From positions 3,576 to 67,575 of the forward strand of contig CAZATP010000013.1 of the NCBI GenBank assembly GCA_964488095.1: a stretch of DNA of 64,000 nt, read 5' to 3'. A model generated the notes under the pieces. It did no database searches. It was not told the origin of the DNA and saw nothing but the letters and a program-made list of their open reading frames with translations. Below are positions 35,111-39,535 of the stretch, piece by piece. Position 1 is the stretch's first letter, and each line of letters starts with the position of its first letter. The stretch comes from an uncultured Chryseobacterium sp. GTDB taxonomy: Bacteria; Bacteroidota; Bacteroidia; UBA10329. Position numbers and translations under genes: made by a program.

Positions 35111-36337
35111 ATGATTACCAAGGTTAGAATCCGTAACTACAAGACGCTAGAGGATACCGAGCTGACGCTTGGAAGAATCAATGTCATTATCGGAGTGAAC
35201 GGAGCGGGGAAATCAAACTTGGCTGAAGCGATTGCCCTTGGGGTTGCAGGTGCCCAAGGTAAACTAGATTCGGAATATCTGACTGCAAGAGGCATTAGAC
35301 TCACTCACCCGAAGTTCATGCGTTCTGGATTTGGCCCCATCAACTCAGATCCTATCCGAATCGATTTGACCAACGACCAGAATACGTTGAAGCCTGTCAT
35401 TAACGTTGAATTGAACAATGACGGAAAACCGTATTCAAAATGGGTAAATCCCATATTGGATAGTGATAGAAAATTTCTTGAAAAGATGTTGGTGTCAATT
35501 TTCAAACCTGGGGAGCCCGATTTGTCTGAACACCCAGAAAATATTCATGAGGGCTTGTTGGATTTAAAGCGTACCGTTGTGGAGAAAAACAAGGATATGT
35601 TTGATGATCCAGAATTCGCTGATTTCATGAGATCAAGCCTTCCAGAATTCGTTAAAAATTTAGTGGAAAGAGGCAGTGAAATTGAGGATTTCGTGATTTA
35701 CAAACCAGAAGAAACGTTTTTGAGGAAATTCGATTCGCAAGGGCAGTTGGAGCCTCTTGGAATGCGAGGTGAAGGATTGCTAAAACTATTGACTGTTTTT
35801 AGCAGTGAGAAGCCAGAGATTTTGGGTGAGTTAAGGAAACATCTTAAGCTGTTTGACTGGTTTGAGGATATTAAACTAAAAGATCAGTTGATAGAAAAGG
35901 AAGTGTACTTCGATATTCAAGATAAATATCTCAATCCTGAATTGGGCTATTTTGACCAACGAAGTTCAAACGAGGGATTCCTCTATCTCGCGTTCTACAT
36001 AAGTCTGTTCCTGAGTGAAACTGCCCCGAAGAATTTTGCAATTGATAATGTTGATAATGCCCTTAACCCGAAACTCTGCACACGCTTAGTGAAGTTGCTG
36101 ACAACCTTGGCTAAGGAATATGGAAAGCAGGCCATTATTACCACTCACAATCCTGCAGTTCTAGATGGGCTTGATTTGAATGACCCAGAGCAAAAGTTGT
36201 TTGTCGTCAGTAGGAAGCGCAACGGTGCCACAAGAATATCAGAAGTGAAAGTGAAGCCTACATCTGATAAGTTGATGAAACTGTCTGAAATGTTCATGTC
36301 AGGAATGTTGGGCGGCCTTCCTAAGAATTTTGCGTGA
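35111..36337 (+). CDS. ABC/SMC/RecF/OLD-type P-loop ATPase (AAA_21/AAA_15-like), putative defence-system ATPase
   Basis: N-terminal IRNYKTL…INVIIGVNGAGKSNLAEAI is the Walker A. C-terminal …FAIDNVDNALNP… is Walker B-like with N in place of the catalytic E, followed by ITTHNP (H-loop). The gene is strongly AT-rich relative to its flanks. Confidence 0.75.
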   Translation: MITKVRIRNYKTLEDTELTLGRINVIIGVNGAGKSNLAEAIALGVAGAQGKLDSEYLTARGIRLTHPKFMRSGFGPINSDPIRIDLTNDQNTLKPVINVELNNDGKPYSKWVNPILDSDRKFLEKMLVSIFKPGEPDLSEHPENIHEGLLDLKRTVVEKNKDMFDDPEFADFMRSSLPEFVKNLVERGSEIEDFVIYKPEETFLRKFDSQGQLEPLGMRGEGLLKLLTVFSSEKPEILGELRKHLKLFDWFEDIKLKDQLIEKEVYFDIQDKYLNPELGYFDQRSSNEGFLYLAFYISLFLSETAPKNFAIDNVDNALNPKLCTRLVKLLTTLAKEYGKQAIITTHNPAVLDGLDLNDPEQKLFVVSRKRNGATRISEVKVKPTSDKLMKLSEMFMSGMLGGLPKNFA

Positions 36338-37011
36338 TGAATGTTGGCATTATCTCGGAAGGTTATACAGACCAGCTTGTTCTGGACAATATAATCATTG
36401 GGTATTTTGGCTCAGATGATTGTGTTGATGTGAAATATTTGCAGCCCCTTCGAGATGAAACTGACCTCTCAGCGCATGATGGCGGTGGTTGGGCGAACCT
36501 GATTGATTACTGTTCGGCTGAGGAGAGAATCAATTCTGCGTTGACTACAAGTGATTATATAGTGATTCATTTGGACACGGACATTCTCTCGAATCTGCAA
36601 ACTGATGTGACTGGGAATGAATCAGTGGAAGAGCTGGTCGAGAAGGCGAAGAATGTTTTGATAGAAAGAATAGCAGGCGACCTGTACAGCCAGAACGCGG
36701 AGAAGATTCTATTCGCTATTTCAGTTCACTCTATTGAGTGCTGGATATTGGTTTTGCTGGAGGACCAGCCGAAGAGGCGTAATCAAACTGTAAATTGTTT
36801 GGATAGAGTGAATAGAAAACTCAGTCCAAGGGGATATTCAATCGATCCGCGAAACAAAAACCATTTCAAGGACGAGTACCATGAACTTTCAGAGGAATTC
36901 TCTAACAAGAGAACACTGAAAAGAGTTAAGGCCAGCAATGATAGTTTGAGCATCTTCTTTGATGCCATGGACGAAAAGTGGTCGTCATTTGACTCTTGCG
37001 TAGATACCTAA
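36334..37011 (+). CDS. small partner protein of the ATPase; TOPRIM-like E…DxD pattern (DUF4276/RloB/AbiLii-like candidate)
   Basis: Start ATGATGAATG overlaps the ATPase stop. N-terminal VGIISEGYTDQ, then IVIHLDTDIL, resemble the TOPRIM Glu plus DxD arrangement. The gene shares the low G+C of the ATPase gene. Confidence 0.55.
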   Translation: MMNVGIISEGYTDQLVLDNIIIGYFGSDDCVDVKYLQPLRDETDLSAHDGGGWANLIDYCSAEERINSALTTSDYIVIHLDTDILSNLQTDVTGNESVEELVEKAKNVLIERIAGDLYSQNAEKILFAISVHSIECWILVLLEDQPKRRNQTVNCLDRVNRKLSPRGYSIDPRNKNHFKDEYHELSEEFSNKRTLKRVKASNDSLSIFFDAMDEKWSSFDSCVDT

Positions 37012-37078: not shown

Positions 37079-37723
37079 TCACCCCCCCACGAACACCCCC
37101 CGTTTCACCTCGTCCTCGGCAAAGAGCACATCGGCAGCGAGCTGAATGCGCTGCACGAAGCTCCACATGTGAAGGAAGGCGCGTTTGCGCTGCGCGGTGA
37201 GGCGGGTGCGCACGCGCTTCTTGTATTCGTGCTGCACCTCGGCATCGGTGAGGGCGTTGGCGGTGTCGAGCAGGGCCTGTGTGTGGGCGGGGGTCATGCC
37301 CTTGGCGGAGAGCTCGGGGGCGTGGTCGAGGGCCAGGAGGTGCATGGTGCGCACGGCAACGGCATAGTGGGCCGGGGCATAGCGGAACTTGACGAGGCGC
37401 TCGAAGCCGAACACCCGGAGGTCGTCCTTGGCGGTGAAGGCGAGGCTGGCATAGTAGCGCAGGTCGCGCACGGCAGCCGCGCAGGCGGCCATCTGCTCGC
37501 CCGTGACGGCCGCGCTGATCTGCTGGTCGTCCACGGTGGTCTCGTCCGTGGGCATGGTGAGGGCATCCTCGATGGCCTGCAGCCAGGCATCGCGGAAGGC
37601 GGGGCCGAGGTCGGGGTCGTAGGCCTCGAACTCGGGCAGGAACTCCTCATAGACCTTGCACATGCGCGAGGCGATGGTGAGGGCGCGGGCATCGGTGTGG
37701 CTGTAGGGGCGGGTGTTGCTCAT
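37079..37723 (-). CDS. hypothetical protein, paralogous to the N-terminal domain of the 38540-39535 product
   Basis: 214 aa. Alignable by eye to the downstream paralogue (…DPDLGPAFRDAWLQAIEDAL… vs …DSDFASPDFETDWQAAIDASL…; …AKGMTPAHTQALLDTANALTD… vs …AKGFTPTMLAEINTLTDN…). Confidence 0.55.
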   Translation of the reverse strand: MSNTRPYSHTDARALTIASRMCKVYEEFLPEFEAYDPDLGPAFRDAWLQAIEDALTMPTDETTVDDQQISAAVTGEQMAACAAAVRDLRYYASLAFTAKDDLRVFGFERLVKFRYAPAHYAVAVRTMHLLALDHAPELSAKGMTPAHTQALLDTANALTDAEVQHEYKKRVRTRLTAQRKRAFLHMWSFVQRIQLAADVLFAEDEVKRGVFVGG

Positions 37724-37984: not shown

Positions 37985-38236
37985 TGCAAAGTGTTTTCCT
38001 TGGCCTGCAATGTATCTCCCTTCTTGTGCAATGTATGTTCCCAGAGCTGCAATGTTCATCCTGTTGTTTGCTATGTATGTCCTTTGCTATGCTATGTATC
38101 ATCCCAACTATGCATGGTTTATTCCTTGGCCTGCAATGTAATTCCCATGGCATGCTATGTATGTCCTATTCACTGTAATGTCTGTCCTTTGGTCTGCAAG
38201 ACACTATCCTTTTGATGCAGCGTGATTCCCTGCCTG
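37985..38236. repeat. tandem array of about 11-12 head-to-tail 21-bp repeats, consensus TGCAATGTATnTCCyyTnnnn
   Basis: Units at 37985, 38006, 38027, 38048, 38069, 38090, 38111, 38132, 38153, 38174 and 38195, plus a degenerate unit at 38216. Each begins TGC(A/T)ATGT and has TCC at unit positions ~12-16. The array is AT-rich. All three forward frames stay open because of repeat composition. Confidence 0.85.
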
Positions 38237-38539: not shown

Positions 38540-39535
38540 TCAGGGCATGGGCGGCATGGGCGGCATCGGTGGTGGTGAGGATGGCGGCAGGGAGGCATTG
38601 ACCACGGTGGGCTGCTTGGTCTGCTCGCGGGTGAAGGGGATCTGAATCAGCGCAAACCCTGCTGCGCTCACCTTCAGGTTGTAATTGCCCGGGGCCACCT
38701 GTGCCAGACCGAAGTTGCCGTCCTGGTCGGTGGTGGTGGTCATGTTCAGCTCCACGTTCTGCACGGTGGCGCCTGCCACAGGCACGCCCATGCTGCTCAC
38801 ATTGCCCACCACGCTATAGACGCTCGGGTTCTCCGTTCTGCGCGGGAAGAGGAAGATGTTGTATAGCAGCGGATTCTCGGCATAGATCACCTCTGATGCT
38901 TCTCTCACCCGCTGGCTGAAGCCCCATGTGGTGTTGTGCGTCACCACCCGTGCGTTGGTGTCGATGGGCGAGAGGGTGTTGAAGCTGTCCTGCGTGGCAT
39001 CGAGGGCGATGAAGTTGTCGGTCAGCGTGTTGATCTCTGCCAGCATGGTCGGGGTGAACCCCTTTGCGGCCAGGGCAGCGGCATGCTGGTTGGCCGCTTT
39101 GAACATCGACTTCATGAAGACGCGCATGCCCTCCTGCGAACCGTAGACCTCCTGATAGTCATCGAACCCGAACTTGTCGAACACCCTGCGGTTCTGTTCC
39201 GAGGCCGATGGCGGGAACGCCTTGTTGGCGAAATACTTCACCTCTTTCACCTTGAGGGTGATGGCCTTCATGGCCGTGTTCACATGTGCGGTATGGATGC
39301 CCAACTGGTCGTCCCGCGTTTCGGCCGTTCCCACCATCAGACTGGCATCGATGGCCGCCTGCCAATCGGTCTCAAAGTCGGGGCTGGCGAAATCGGAGTC
39401 GAACGCGGTGAAATCGCCCTGATAGGTGATGAAAAGATGGCGATGCATGGATGCGAAAGTCAGCATTGCTGCATCAGATAGATTGTACTGGCGTTTTTCC
39501 ATAGCTTTTAGATTGAGTTTAGAATGAAAAGACAC
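38540..39535 (-). CDS. hypothetical protein: N-terminal domain paralogous to 37079-37723, then a CarboxypepD_reg-like beta-sandwich and a Pro-rich tail (PPSSPPPMPPMPPMP)
   Basis: …VVGNVSSMGVPVAGATVQNVELNMTTTTDQDGNFGLAQVAPGNYNLKVSAAGFA… is a carboxypeptidase-regulatory-like fold motif. The C-terminal PMP repeats are encoded by GGCATGGGC repeats. Confidence 0.6.
   Translation of the reverse strand: MSFHSKLNLKAMEKRQYNLSDAAMLTFASMHRHLFITYQGDFTAFDSDFASPDFETDWQAAIDASLMVGTAETRDDQLGIHTAHVNTAMKAITLKVKEVKYFANKAFPPSASEQNRRVFDKFGFDDYQEVYGSQEGMRVFMKSMFKAANQHAAALAAKGFTPTMLAEINTLTDNFIALDATQDSFNTLSPIDTNARVVTHNTTWGFSQRVREASEVIYAENPLLYNIFLFPRRTENPSVYSVVGNVSSMGVPVAGATVQNVELNMTTTTDQDGNFGLAQVAPGNYNLKVSAAGFALIQIPFTREQTKQPTVVNASLPPSSPPPMPPMPPMP

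What the first reader, a model, noticed from the sequence alone, without database searches (positions are those of the whole stretch)
36170..36337. Walker B catalytic glutamate replaced by asparagine in the island ATPase (…FAIDNVDNALNP…)
In ABC/OLD-family ATPases the Walker B motif is hhhhDE, with the Glu acting as the catalytic base for hydrolysis. Here the aligned residues read D-N. A natural E-to-N change should permit ATP binding but strongly slow hydrolysis, which suggests the protein acts as an ATP-bound switch or sensor rather than a turnover motor. The motif assignment is by eye and could be shifted.
Basis: inference. Interest (0 to 1): 0.55.

Follow-up and report, generated by a model that had tools for sequence, protein, structure and literature searches.

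The report
Defence ATPase lacking its catalytic glutamate
A two-gene module that was probably acquired horizontally and is a candidate phage defence encodes an ABC-type ATPase in which the glutamate that normally drives ATP hydrolysis is an asparagine in essentially every relative, so it probably works as an ATP-bound switch controlling its partner nuclease-like protein, though this has not been tested.

Summary
The motif FAIDNVDNALNP is real, but it lies at nt 36035-36070 (aa 309-320 of the 408-aa ORF 35111-36337). The coordinates given (36170-36337) cover the C-terminal tail instead.

Profile alignments to solved ABC/OLD-type ATPases put N313 on the Walker-B catalytic Glu. They put N319 on the D-loop residue, which is His in OLD nucleases and Asp in SMC. 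Among 386 homologues, position 313 is N in 379, S in 5, D in 1 and never E. Walker A Lys, the Walker B acid and the H-loop His are about 99% conserved.

The gene is the A component of PADLOC candidate system PDC-M31, which is predicted but untested. It is translationally coupled (TGATG) to a 224-aa protein with a Toprim-like E...DxD signature. B follows A in 16 of 17 loci examined, across phyla and on plasmids and viral contigs. Here the pair forms a 38-45% GC islet in a 55-69% GC genome.

The "ATP-bound switch" reading is plausible but unproven. It has precedents: Menshen NsnB has "EN", GajA is a non-hydrolysing nucleotide sensor, and Pdr5 has a degenerate site with the same E-to-N change. 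The retained H-loop His leaves room for slow hydrolysis.

This is a real, moderately interesting variant of a known kind.

The parts
35111..36337 (+). ABC-type (AAA_21/AAA_15, 'OLD-ABC'-like) ATPase, 408 aa; A component of PADLOC candidate system PDC-M31
   Evidence: ORF. Pfam AAA_21 scores 61.5 bits against a cutoff of 27, covering aa 23-352 and 1-304/304 of the profile. PADLOC PDC-M31A E=1.1e-66, full length. The fold matches PtuA, Rad50, SMC, Eco8 OLD and GajA.
35192..35215 (+). Walker A / P-loop GVNGAGKS (aa 28-35; K34)
   Evidence: G28, N30, G31, G33 and K34 are invariant. K34 is found in 382/382 ungapped sequences.
35963..35980 (+). Non-canonical signature-motif region SSNEGF (aa 285-290); N287-E288-G289 nearly invariant; register relative to LSGGQ/SDG unresolved
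   Evidence: Conservation. The Eco8 alignment puts SDG on R284-S286. The plasmid-ATPase alignment puts SDG on N287-G289. A helix starts at residue 284 in the model.
36035..36070 (+). The motif of the finding, FAIDNVDNALNP (aa 309-320). It contains the Walker B strand, D312 (nt 36044-36046), N313 in the catalytic-Glu position (nt 36047-36049) and N319 in the D-loop position (nt 36065-36067).
   Evidence: Coordinates. Register. Conservation. D-loop identity of the 'LHP' His from PMC7049728.
36137..36148 (+). H-loop ITTH (aa 343-346; H346), retained
   Evidence: H346 is found in 383/386. It is aligned to the 'TTHSP' H-loops of 6p74, Eco8 and 9n69.
36170..36337 (+). The coordinates given in the finding. 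They cover the C-terminal tail aa 354-408, which carries the highly conserved end motif LSEMFMSGMLGGLPKNF (aa 391-407, nt 36281-36331). It may be the docking element for the partner protein (inference).
   Evidence: Invariant residues D358, E360, L363, R368, G372, T374, L391, S392, G398, G401-P404 and F407. No Pfam domain, DUF3696 included, is detected there.
36337..37011 (+). PDC-M31B, 224 aa, a Toprim-like (RloB/DUF4276-like) putative nuclease. Its ATG overlaps the stop codon of A by 1 nt (TGATG). Conserved E8-G9 (nt 36358-36363), D80-T81-D82 (nt 36574-36582) and E134.
   Evidence: sequence. PADLOC PDC-M31B E=9.5e-13. Invariant columns. Sub-threshold Pfam hits among 16 members: RloB 11, DUF4276 7, OLD-like_TOPRIM 3. 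The fold search found no significant match.
35200..37000 (.). Low-GC islet (38-45% GC) containing only the A-B pair, within flanks of 55-69% GC
   Evidence: Composition profile.

Best explanation
The region encodes a mobile two-gene module, PADLOC candidate system PDC-M31. It consists of an ABC-type ATPase (A) translationally coupled to a small Toprim-like putative nuclease (B).

In A, the two residues that position and activate the hydrolytic water are both asparagine throughout the family: the Walker-B Glu (N313) and the D-loop Asp/His (N319). Walker A Lys, the Mg-binding Walker-B acid and the H-loop His are kept.

The most likely mechanism is that A binds ATP-Mg and forms long-lived ATP-bound head-to-head dimers or oligomers with little or no turnover. 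That nucleotide-locked assembly holds B inactive, possibly through the conserved C-terminal tail. A phage cue, either a trigger protein or a fall in nucleotide levels, shifts the assembly so that B is released or activated and cleaves nucleic acid.

Shown here: the motif identity and register, its family-wide conservation, the A-B pairing and coupling, and the patchy, mobile distribution. Inferred: low ATPase rate, oligomerisation, A-B binding, nuclease activity of B, and defence function.
For: Register of N313 on the catalytic Glu and of N319 on the D-loop: and PMC7049728.

Conservation: 379/386 N and 0 E at position 313; 378/386 N at 319; K34 in 382/382; D/E312 in 384/386; H346 in 383/386.

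ABC fold: the model has mean pLDDT 75, above 85 around the motifs, and its best PDB neighbours are PtuA, Rad50, SMC, Eco8 and GajA.

System identity: PDC-M31A 1.1e-66 and PDC-M31B 9.5e-13. PDC systems are untested candidates predicted by embedding in BREX, DISARM or type I RM loci (bioRxiv 10.1101/2024.01.29.577857).

A-B adjacency holds in 16 of 17 loci: Bacteroidota, Cyanobacteria, Alpha- and Gammaproteobacteria, Verrucomicrobia, two plasmids and 8 IMG/VR viral contigs. The start of B overlaps the stop of A by 1 nt. The pair forms a GC islet.

B keeps E8, D80-T81-D82 and E134. DUF4276 and RloB are described as Toprim members with the same E/DxD residues (PMC12065111).

Functional precedents: GajA has no ATPase activity and gates its Toprim nuclease by nucleotide binding (PMC8136825). 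AriA sequesters AriB and its Walker-B E393A mutant is ATPase-defective (PMC11464382). Pdr5's non-catalytic site has E-to-N, and a D-loop D-to-N change confers MgATP-dependent dimerisation on the TAP1 NBD (PMC7756269). Menshen NsnB has 'EN' in place of 'DE' (PMC12065111).
Against: No biochemical or genetic data exist for any member, and no paper mentions PDC-M31.

The H-loop His is about 99% conserved. Degenerate transporter sites that lose the Glu often lose the His too (PMC7756269). Its retention here may mean that some hydrolysis, or at least gamma-phosphate sensing, is still selected.

The Toprim assignment of B is weak. All Pfam hits are below threshold and Foldseek found nothing significant; the best hit had E=0.016 and was flavodoxin-like.

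The related ATPase-Toprim candidate HEC-01 gave no defence in assays.

One Acinetobacter subclade has Ser and one sequence has Asp at position 313. The constraint may therefore be 'not Glu' rather than 'Asn'.
Confidence: 0.55

Rival explanations
1. A is still a working ATPase motor. Hydrolysis proceeds without the Walker-B Glu, using the retained H-loop His (a 'linchpin' or substrate-assisted mechanism), the Walker-B Asp, or an acidic residue supplied in trans. That residue could be, for example, the invariant E288 of the opposing signature region, or could come from B or from a trigger. On this view Asn only tunes the rate or makes hydrolysis conditional.
For: H346 is conserved in 383/386 and E288 in 383/386. 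Several other acidic residues are invariant: E39, E221, D358, E360. In PARIS, ATP turnover is real and is modulated by the trigger. Ts OLD also deviates at several motifs yet hydrolyses ATP.
Against: E-to-A or E-to-Q at this position abolishes or cripples hydrolysis in related ABC ATPases (AriA E393A; transporter data). Two water-positioning residues, N313 and N319, are replaced together across the family. I could not inspect model coordinates, so no candidate substitute base has been shown to lie near the gamma-phosphate.
Confidence: 0.3
2. The module is not an anti-phage system. It could be a toxin-antitoxin or addiction cassette, or a DNA/RNA-processing pair that serves the mobile elements carrying it. 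The degenerate ATPase would then act as a regulatory or antitoxin-like subunit.
For: The module occurs on plasmids and viral contigs and as an isolated two-gene islet, without a defence-island neighbourhood in the window or in most loci. Its PDC status is only a prediction. Pfam labels AAA_21 'putative AbiEii toxin, Type IV TA system'.
Against: The closest HMM families are all defence or candidate-defence ATPases: PDC-M25A, PDC-M07A, HEC-01A, AriA, AbiLi, mad3, NsnB, GajA. Many validated defence systems are themselves carried by phages or plasmids and act like TA systems, so this rival overlaps the main explanation in mechanism.
Confidence: 0.12
3. The motif is mis-assigned or is a decaying pseudo-motif. 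A canonical DE would lie elsewhere, or the gene would be drifting.
Against: Four independent alignments agree on the register. The strand-then-D-N topology appears in the model. The ORF is intact and is 43-53% identical to hundreds of full-length homologues with invariant motifs.
Confidence: 0.02

Closest known systems
Menshen NsnB ABC ATPase (Li et al. 2025, PMC12065111)
   Same: It is an OLD-ABC/AAA_15-type defence ATPase whose Walker-B 'DE' dyad is reported to be replaced by 'EN'. 30 of the 386 members of the present family also read 'EN'. The PADLOC NsnB model hits the window protein at 6.9e-18. Some Menshen effectors carry DUF4276/RloB Toprim domains. NsnB is proposed to be a transducer that controls a bound nuclease.
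   Different: There is no DUF3696 C-terminal domain, no NsnA (DUF262) gene, and no inPIN domain on the partner. The module has two genes rather than three. NsnB is not the best PADLOC match: PDC-M31A scores 1e-66, and several other families rank above NsnB. Whether the Asn is shared by descent or arose convergently was not resolved.
PARIS (AriA ABC ATPase + AriB Toprim nuclease; PMC11464382)
   Same: It is a two-gene pair of an ABC ATPase and a separate Toprim nuclease, often carried by mobile elements. The ATPase scaffold sequesters the nuclease until a trigger releases it. AriA appears among the sequence and fold matches.
   Different: AriA keeps the catalytic Glu (E393) and turns over ATP. 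AriB is a 35-kDa DUF4435-type Toprim, whereas B here is 224 aa and RloB/DUF4276-like. The AriA HMM match is weak and partial.
Gabija GajA (PMC8136825; PDB 8u7i)
   Same: It has an OLD-type ABC ATPase-like domain that binds nucleotides, shows no ATPase activity and gates a Toprim nuclease. This is the clearest precedent for a sensor rather than a motor. It is a structural neighbour.
   Different: In GajA the ATPase and Toprim domains are fused in one polypeptide that works with the helicase GajB. I did not examine GajA's Walker-B residues.
OLD-family nucleases (Ts OLD 6p74, P2 Old; PMC7049728)
   Same: The ATPase subtype is the same, with the 'DEPExxLHP' type Walker-B/D-loop block that aligns to DNVDNALNP. 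6p74 is the best sequence hit in the PDB. OLD nucleases associate with Toprim domains.
   Different: OLD proteins are single-chain ATPase-Toprim fusions. They keep the Glu and a D-loop His and they hydrolyse ATP. Here both residues are Asn and the Toprim-like protein is a separate gene.
Degenerate nucleotide-binding site of fungal PDR transporter Pdr5 (review PMC7756269)
   Same: It shows a natural Walker-B Glu-to-Asn replacement, in a site that does not drive catalysis (mutating its residues did not affect ATPase or transport).
   Different: In Pdr5 only one of two composite sites is degenerate. That site also loses the Walker A Lys and the H-loop His, and the other site hydrolyses. Here a single-NBD protein would make every site degenerate while keeping Lys and His.
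HEC-01, AbiL (AbiLi/AbiLii) and MADS mad3/mad4: ABC ATPase + RloB/DUF4276/Toprim pairs
   Same: These have the same two-gene architecture. A hits HEC-01A, AbiLi and mad3 models at 1e-19 to 1e-23, and B hits HEC-01B weakly at 1.2e-3.
   Different: The scores are far below PDC-M31's own. NCBIfam MAD3 scores 50.7 bits against a cutoff of 420. B does not hit an AbiLii model. The Walker-B state of these families could not be examined with the tools available.

Membership tests
Pfam AAA_21 (PF13304), ABC-type ATPase | Whole-protein score above the gathering threshold with end-to-end profile coverage | tested here: met
   61.5 bits against a cutoff of 27; aa 23-352 cover profile positions 1-304/304.
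Catalytically canonical ABC ATPase | Walker A GxxGxGK[ST] | tested here: met
   GVNGAGKS at aa 28-35; K34 is invariant.
Catalytically canonical ABC ATPase | Walker B hhhhD followed by the catalytic Glu | tested here: not met
   The sequence reads NFAI-D312-N313. N313 aligns to the Glu of Eco8 OLD, 9n69, SMC and a plasmid ATPase. None of 386 homologues has E.
Catalytically canonical ABC ATPase | D-loop acidic residue (Asp; His in OLD nucleases) | tested here: not met
   N319 aligns to the H of 'LHP' and to the SMC D-loop Asp (PMC7049728). N is found in 378/386 and H in 4.
Catalytically canonical ABC ATPase | H-loop histidine | tested here: met
   ITTH, with H346 in 383/386.
Catalytically canonical ABC ATPase | Signature motif (LSGGQ / SxG) and Q-loop Gln | tested here: inconclusive
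   The region reads Q-R-S-S-N-E-G-F with N-E-G nearly invariant. Two alignments give registers three residues apart. The candidate Q-loop residue Q212 is found in 322/386 and lies in a low-confidence part of the model.
PADLOC PDC-M31 (candidate two-gene system) | Adjacent genes matching the PDC-M31A and PDC-M31B models | tested here: met
   A scores 1.1e-66 over 1-405 of the protein and 1-394/395 of the model. B scores 9.5e-13 and 4e-12. The genes overlap by 1 nt. PADLOC's own system rules and thresholds were not available.
Anti-phage defence system (functional) | Experimentally shown protection against phage | not testable with these tools
   PDC systems are explicitly untested predictions. 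No paper mentions PDC-M31.
Menshen (NsnABC) | An NsnA (ParB-DUF262) gene, NsnB with a C-terminal DUF3696, and an NsnC inPIN-effector | tested here: not met
   There is no DUF3696 hit even at E<=10. The upstream gene is an unrelated 1477-aa protein on the other strand. The partner is a stand-alone Toprim-like protein.
OLD-family nuclease / Gabija GajA | ABC ATPase and Toprim domains in one polypeptide (plus a UvrD-like helicase partner for class 2 OLD and Gabija) | tested here: not met
   The ATPase ORF ends at aa 408 without a Toprim domain. The Toprim-like protein is a separate ORF, and there is no helicase nearby.
PARIS (AriAB) | AriA-type ATPase plus a DUF4435-type AriB | tested here: not met
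   The AriA models hit only partially at 5e-21 and 7.5e-18, against 1e-66 for PDC-M31A. B does not hit an AriB model.
Toprim superfamily (for protein B) | Conserved Glu after beta-1 and a DxD after beta-3 in a beta2-beta1-beta3-beta4 alpha/beta fold | tested here: inconclusive
   E8-G9 follows strand 2-6 and D80-T81-D82 follows strand 74-80; both are invariant or nearly so. However, the Pfam hits to RloB, DUF4276 and OLD-like_TOPRIM are all below threshold, and Foldseek against the PDB gave no significant hit, with 6p74 at rank 10 and E=0.21.

The most novel reading that the evidence does not exclude
PDC-M31A would be a homo-oligomeric ABC ATPase family in which every composite ATP site has been deliberately made non-hydrolytic, with the Walker-B Glu and the D-loop residue both converted to Asn. 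This is the chemistry that eukaryotic transporters use for their single 'degenerate' site. The protein would then be a dedicated ATP-occupancy sensor that licenses a minimal Toprim nuclease when phage infection drains nucleotides. Alternatively, hydrolysis would be completed only when a trigger or the partner supplies the missing carboxylate in trans. NsnB of Menshen would share this design, which would define a class of 'EQ-like by nature' immune ABC switches.
Probability: 0.15. Interest if true: 0.7.

Novelty: new variant of a known kind. Interest (0 to 1): 0.45.

Why it matters
ABC ATPase plus nuclease pairs (OLD, Gabija, PARIS, Septu, Menshen) are among the commonest bacterial immune modules. 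An open question is whether the ATPase works as a motor, a timer or a nucleotide sensor.

This family has replaced both water-activating residues with amides while keeping everything needed to bind ATP-Mg. It is in effect a natural counterpart of the 'EQ' trapping mutants used in the laboratory. If it is confirmed to bind but not hydrolyse ATP, it would offer a clean, small (408 + 224 aa) model for nucleotide-state control of a Toprim effector. It would also link the isolated remark about NsnB's 'EN' dyad to a broader class. The N313E revertant is a direct, cheap experiment.

If the protein turns out to hydrolyse ATP normally, it would instead be informative about Glu-independent catalysis in ABC folds.

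Tried and rejected
1. Profile-profile (hhalign) comparison of the family with two outgroup ATPases aligned only the N-terminal P-loop region and said nothing about Walker B. I replaced it with a C-terminal HMM search.

2. The Foldseek search of the B model against the PDB gave no significant hit. The Toprim call therefore rests on motifs and sub-threshold HMM hits.

The viral-contig scan was more useful.

4. A literature search for 'PDC-M31' found nothing. The Krishnan et al. 2020 ABC classification (PMC7544218) is not held, so I could not check whether this clade or its Asn was already described there.

5. I looked for DUF3696, the NsnB hallmark, in the conserved C-terminal tail and found none even at E<=10.

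6. I looked for insertion scars around the GC islet. The only find was an imperfect 21-nt direct repeat (34774 and 37010, 18/21 identical), which I regard as chance. No sigma-70-like promoter or terminator exceeded the shuffle expectation.

7. The exact-sequence look-ups did not reveal the source organism.

8. I could not read model coordinates, so I did not test whether any conserved acidic residue sits near the gamma-phosphate.

9. I did not obtain sequences of NsnB, HEC-01A, PDC-M07A/M25A, AbiLi or mad3. Whether the E-to-N change arose once or repeatedly is therefore open.
Full report
**1. What is at the coordinates.**
The window carries a 408-aa ORF at 35111..36337 (+). The quoted peptide FAIDNVDNALNP is in it, at aa 309-320, which is nt 36035-36070. 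The coordinates in the finding, 36170-36337, instead encode aa 354-408, the C-terminal tail. 'PKNFA' occurs both immediately before the motif (aa 306-310) and at the very C-terminus (aa 404-408). A matching 14-nt DNA repeat lies at 36026-36039 and 36320-36333. That probably explains the slip.

**2. Is N313 really in the Walker-B glutamate position?**
The protein is a full-length Pfam AAA_21 member (61.5 bits against a cutoff of 27) with additional AAA_15, AAA_23 and SMC_N hits. Four alignments agree on the register:
- phmmer to SMC 1e69: 'AIDNVDNALNP' over 'VLDEVDSPLDD'.
- A 32-sequence family profile to the retron Eco8 OLD nuclease: 'iDnidasLnPkL' over 'IDEPEVGLHPKL'.
- The same profile to the retron-IA ATPase 9n69: 'IDEIDLHLHPQ'.
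- A C-terminal family HMM to an unrelated enterobacterial plasmid ATPase: 'AIDNIDASLNP' over 'ALNEPENSLHP'.

In every case D312 falls on the Walker-B acid and N313 on the catalytic Glu. N319 falls on the His of 'LHP' or the SMC D-loop Asp. The Ts OLD structure paper identifies that His (H283) as the D-loop residue replacing the canonical Asp (PMC7049728).

The AlphaFold2 model has mean pLDDT 75 and pTM 0.75, with pLDDT above 85 around the P-loop, Walker B strand and H-loop. It shows the expected topology: strand 23-28, then the P-loop, then a helix starting at K34; strand 308-311 ending in D312-N313; and strand 340-345 ending at H346. Its best PDB neighbours are PtuA and retron-IA ATPases, Rad50, SMC heads, Eco8 OLD, Ts OLD and GajA. 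No alternative hhhhDE exists.

**3. Is the Asn conserved?**
- Among the 120 best hits of the 90%-clustered database (43-53% identity), N313 is found in 120/120, D312 in 119/120, N319 in 120/120 and H346 in 120/120.
- Among 150 representatives of 50%-identity clusters, N313 is found in 149/150; the exception is Asp, and none is Glu.
- After adding a divergent Acinetobacter plasmid clade (33% identity), the total is 386 sequences. N is found in 379, S in 5 (one subclade of at least 83% identity), D in 1 and a gap in 1; E never appears.
- The dyad reads DN in 348, EN in 30, ES in 5, DD in 1 and NN in 1.
- K34 is found in 382/382 ungapped sequences, the Walker-B acid in 384/386, N319 in 378/386 and H346 in 383/386.
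- Outgroups keep the Glu. A Pseudomonas OLD reads 'LLIEEPEAHIH' and the plasmid ATPase reads 'IALNEPENSLHP', as do all the PDB relatives above.

The replacement is therefore a defining, selected feature of the family, and it comes paired with a second amide substitution in the D-loop.

The signature-motif region (Q-R-S-S-N-E-G-F, with N-E-G nearly invariant) is also non-canonical. Its register relative to LSGGQ/SDG is unresolved, because differ by three residues.

**4. What the gene belongs to.**
The PADLOC model PDC-M31A matches end to end (E=1.1e-66). Weaker matches go to PDC-M25A, PDC-M07A, HEC-01A, AriA, AbiLi, mad3, NsnB and GajA.

The next ORF (ATG at 36337, 224 aa, ending at 37011) matches PDC-M31B at 9.5e-13. 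Its ATG overlaps the TGA of A by one base, TGATG, which implies translational coupling.

PDC systems are 145 candidates predicted by 'guilt-by-embedding' in BREX, DISARM and type I RM loci and are explicitly untested (bioRxiv 10.1101/2024.01.29.577857). No paper in the library mentions PDC-M31.

The pair sits in a 38-45% GC islet between 55-69% GC flanks. Homologous A-B pairs lie between unrelated housekeeping genes in Arcicella, Bradyrhizobium and Pseudanabaena. They also occur in a Verrucomicrobia MAG and a Bacteroidales MAG, on an Acinetobacter mobilisable plasmid and a Pseudanabaena plasmid, and on 8 of 8 IMG/VR viral contigs, all with DN. Overall, B follows A in 16 of 17 loci with sequence available. 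The exception is L008, described in section 8.

**5. The partner.**
B evolves fast; only 12 word-index hits were found. It nevertheless keeps E8-G9, D12, D80-T81-D82, E134 and W136. In the model (mean pLDDT 84), E8 follows strand 2-6 and the DTD follows strand 74-80. This is the Toprim pattern of a Glu after beta-1 and a DxD after beta-3.

Of 16 members, 11 hit RloB, 7 hit DUF4276 and 3 hit OLD-like_TOPRIM, all below Pfam thresholds. RefSeq annotates the Pseudanabaena homologue as DUF4276. Li et al. 2025 classify DUF4276 and RloB as Toprim members with these catalytic residues (PMC12065111). However, Foldseek against the PDB found nothing significant; the best hit had E=0.016, and Ts OLD ranked 10th at E=0.21. 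I therefore treat 'Toprim-like nuclease' as probable, not established.

**6. Mechanism.**
The following statements from the literature support the inference:
- The Walker-B Glu, together with the D-loop, positions or activates the hydrolytic water (summarised in PMC7049728).
- AriA E393A is ATPase-defective (PMC11464382).
- The non-catalytic site of Pdr5 has Glu replaced by Asn, and introducing the rat-type D-loop Asn into the human TAP1 NBD confers MgATP-dependent dimerisation (PMC7756269).
- GajA binds nucleotides, has no ATPase activity, and nucleotide binding inhibits its Toprim nuclease (PMC8136825).
- AriA sequesters AriB until a trigger releases it.
- NsnB, with 'EN', is proposed to be a transducer that controls a bound nuclease.

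On this basis, the most likely working of the module is as follows. A binds ATP-Mg through the intact P-loop and D312. It forms long-lived ATP-bound oligomers because N313 and N319 cripple hydrolysis. It keeps B inactive, plausibly through the invariant C-terminal tail (L391, S392, G398, G401-P404, F407). A phage cue or nucleotide depletion then releases or activates B.

Only the sequence-level statements are shown here. Binding, oligomerisation, low turnover, nuclease activity and defence are all inferred.

The main counter-signal is the 99% retention of the H-loop His. Degenerate transporter sites frequently lose it together with the Glu. Slow, conditional or trans-completed hydrolysis therefore remains a live rival, to which I give a confidence of 0.3.

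**7. Comparison with known systems and novelty.**
The architecture, an ABC ATPase plus a separate Toprim-like protein, is that of PARIS, HEC-01, AbiL and MADS mad3/mad4. The ATPase subtype is that of OLD and GajA.

The module fails the membership criteria for Menshen: no DUF3696, no NsnA and no inPIN. It fails those for OLD and Gabija because it is not a fusion and has no helicase. It fails those for PARIS because the AriA match is weak and there is no AriB. It fails those for MAD3, with 50.7 bits against a cutoff of 420. It does meet PADLOC PDC-M31.

Walker-B Glu-to-Asn has been noted once for a defence ATPase, NsnB, in one descriptive sentence. It is also known from fungal PDR transporters. 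To my knowledge from the searchable library, three things are not described: the replacement is universal in this catalogued but unstudied family; it is coupled to a D-loop Asn; and it occurs in a single-NBD protein, so that every site would be degenerate while Lys and His are retained.

I rate this a new variant of a known kind, with interest 0.45. It is a solid, testable observation rather than a surprise to specialists.

**8. Other observations.**
- The codons for D-N-V-D-N form a perfect 9-nt tandem repeat at 36042-36059.
- An Acinetobacter subclade has 'ES' at the dyad.
- In L008 an EN-type homologue is followed by a PP-loop-like ORF and a DUF262-like ORF ('YQRDYSW') instead of B.
- About 100 enterobacterial conjugative plasmids carry a different AAA_15/21 ATPase with the converse change, 'NE'.
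- Downstream of the islet lie two paralogous genes (29% identity, E=5e-18). They are separated by a lower-GC gap containing a degenerate 63-nt tandem repeat.

Noticed in passing
window 36042-36059: A perfect 9-nt tandem repeat, TTGATAATG x2, encodes D312-N313-V314-D315-N316. The 'DN' of Walker B is therefore duplicated at the DNA level. Most homologues read D-N-I-D-A/N, so this is probably coincidental.
   Followed up: partly
window 36026-36039 and 36320-36333: A 14-nt direct repeat encodes 'PKNFA' twice in the ATPase, at aa 306-310 and aa 404-408.
   Followed up: yes
window 35759-35788 (aa 217-226 of the ATPase): The motif G217-x-x-G220-E221-G222-L223-x-K225-L226 is invariant, and its role is unknown. 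It lies at the edge of a low-confidence loop (aa 201-220). It may correspond to the 'GxG' that Li et al. report in place of the SGG motif in NsnB.
   Followed up: no
window 37996-38162: A degenerate 63-nt tandem repeat (2.7 copies, 68% matches) lies in a 46% GC gap between two minus-strand genes. It produces several spurious Cys-rich ORFs.
   Followed up: no
window 37079-37723 (-) and 38540-39535 (-): These two neighbouring genes are paralogues (29% identity over about 215 aa, E=5e-18). The longer one adds a CarboxypepD_reg domain and a Pro-rich tail encoded by a 9-nt repeat at 38544-38566. The shared N-terminal domain has no Pfam match.
   Followed up: partly
L008 5162-8581 (uncultured Bacteroidales MAG): An 'EN'-type homologue of the ATPase is followed not by B but by a 373-aa PP-loop-like ORF ('GISGGKDSAA') and a 766-aa ORF with a DUF262-like 'YQRDYSW' motif. 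This hints at a link to the Dnd, Ssp or Menshen-type neighbourhoods.
   Followed up: partly
L013 1818-3814 (Acinetobacter baumannii plasmid pOCUAc18-2) and P0280-P0284: A divergent subclade of the family sits on a small mobilisable plasmid and has 'ES' at the Walker-B dyad (VFAIESIDKSLNP). It still has the LNP D-loop, the H-loop His and a B partner.
   Followed up: yes
L015 3501-4589 (E. coli IncFIB plasmid) and L016 (Rahnella plasmid); about 100 enterobacterial plasmid records: A different 363-aa AAA_15/21 ATPase is widespread on conjugative plasmids. It has 'IALNEPENSLHP', with the Walker-B Asp replaced by Asn while the catalytic Glu is kept, which is the converse of the present case. No small partner gene is annotated next to it.
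   Followed up: partly
L009 5173-5866: The B homologue in a red-deer gut Bacteroidales MAG matches the B profile in two overlapping ORF pieces. This suggests a frameshift or an assembly error.
   Followed up: no
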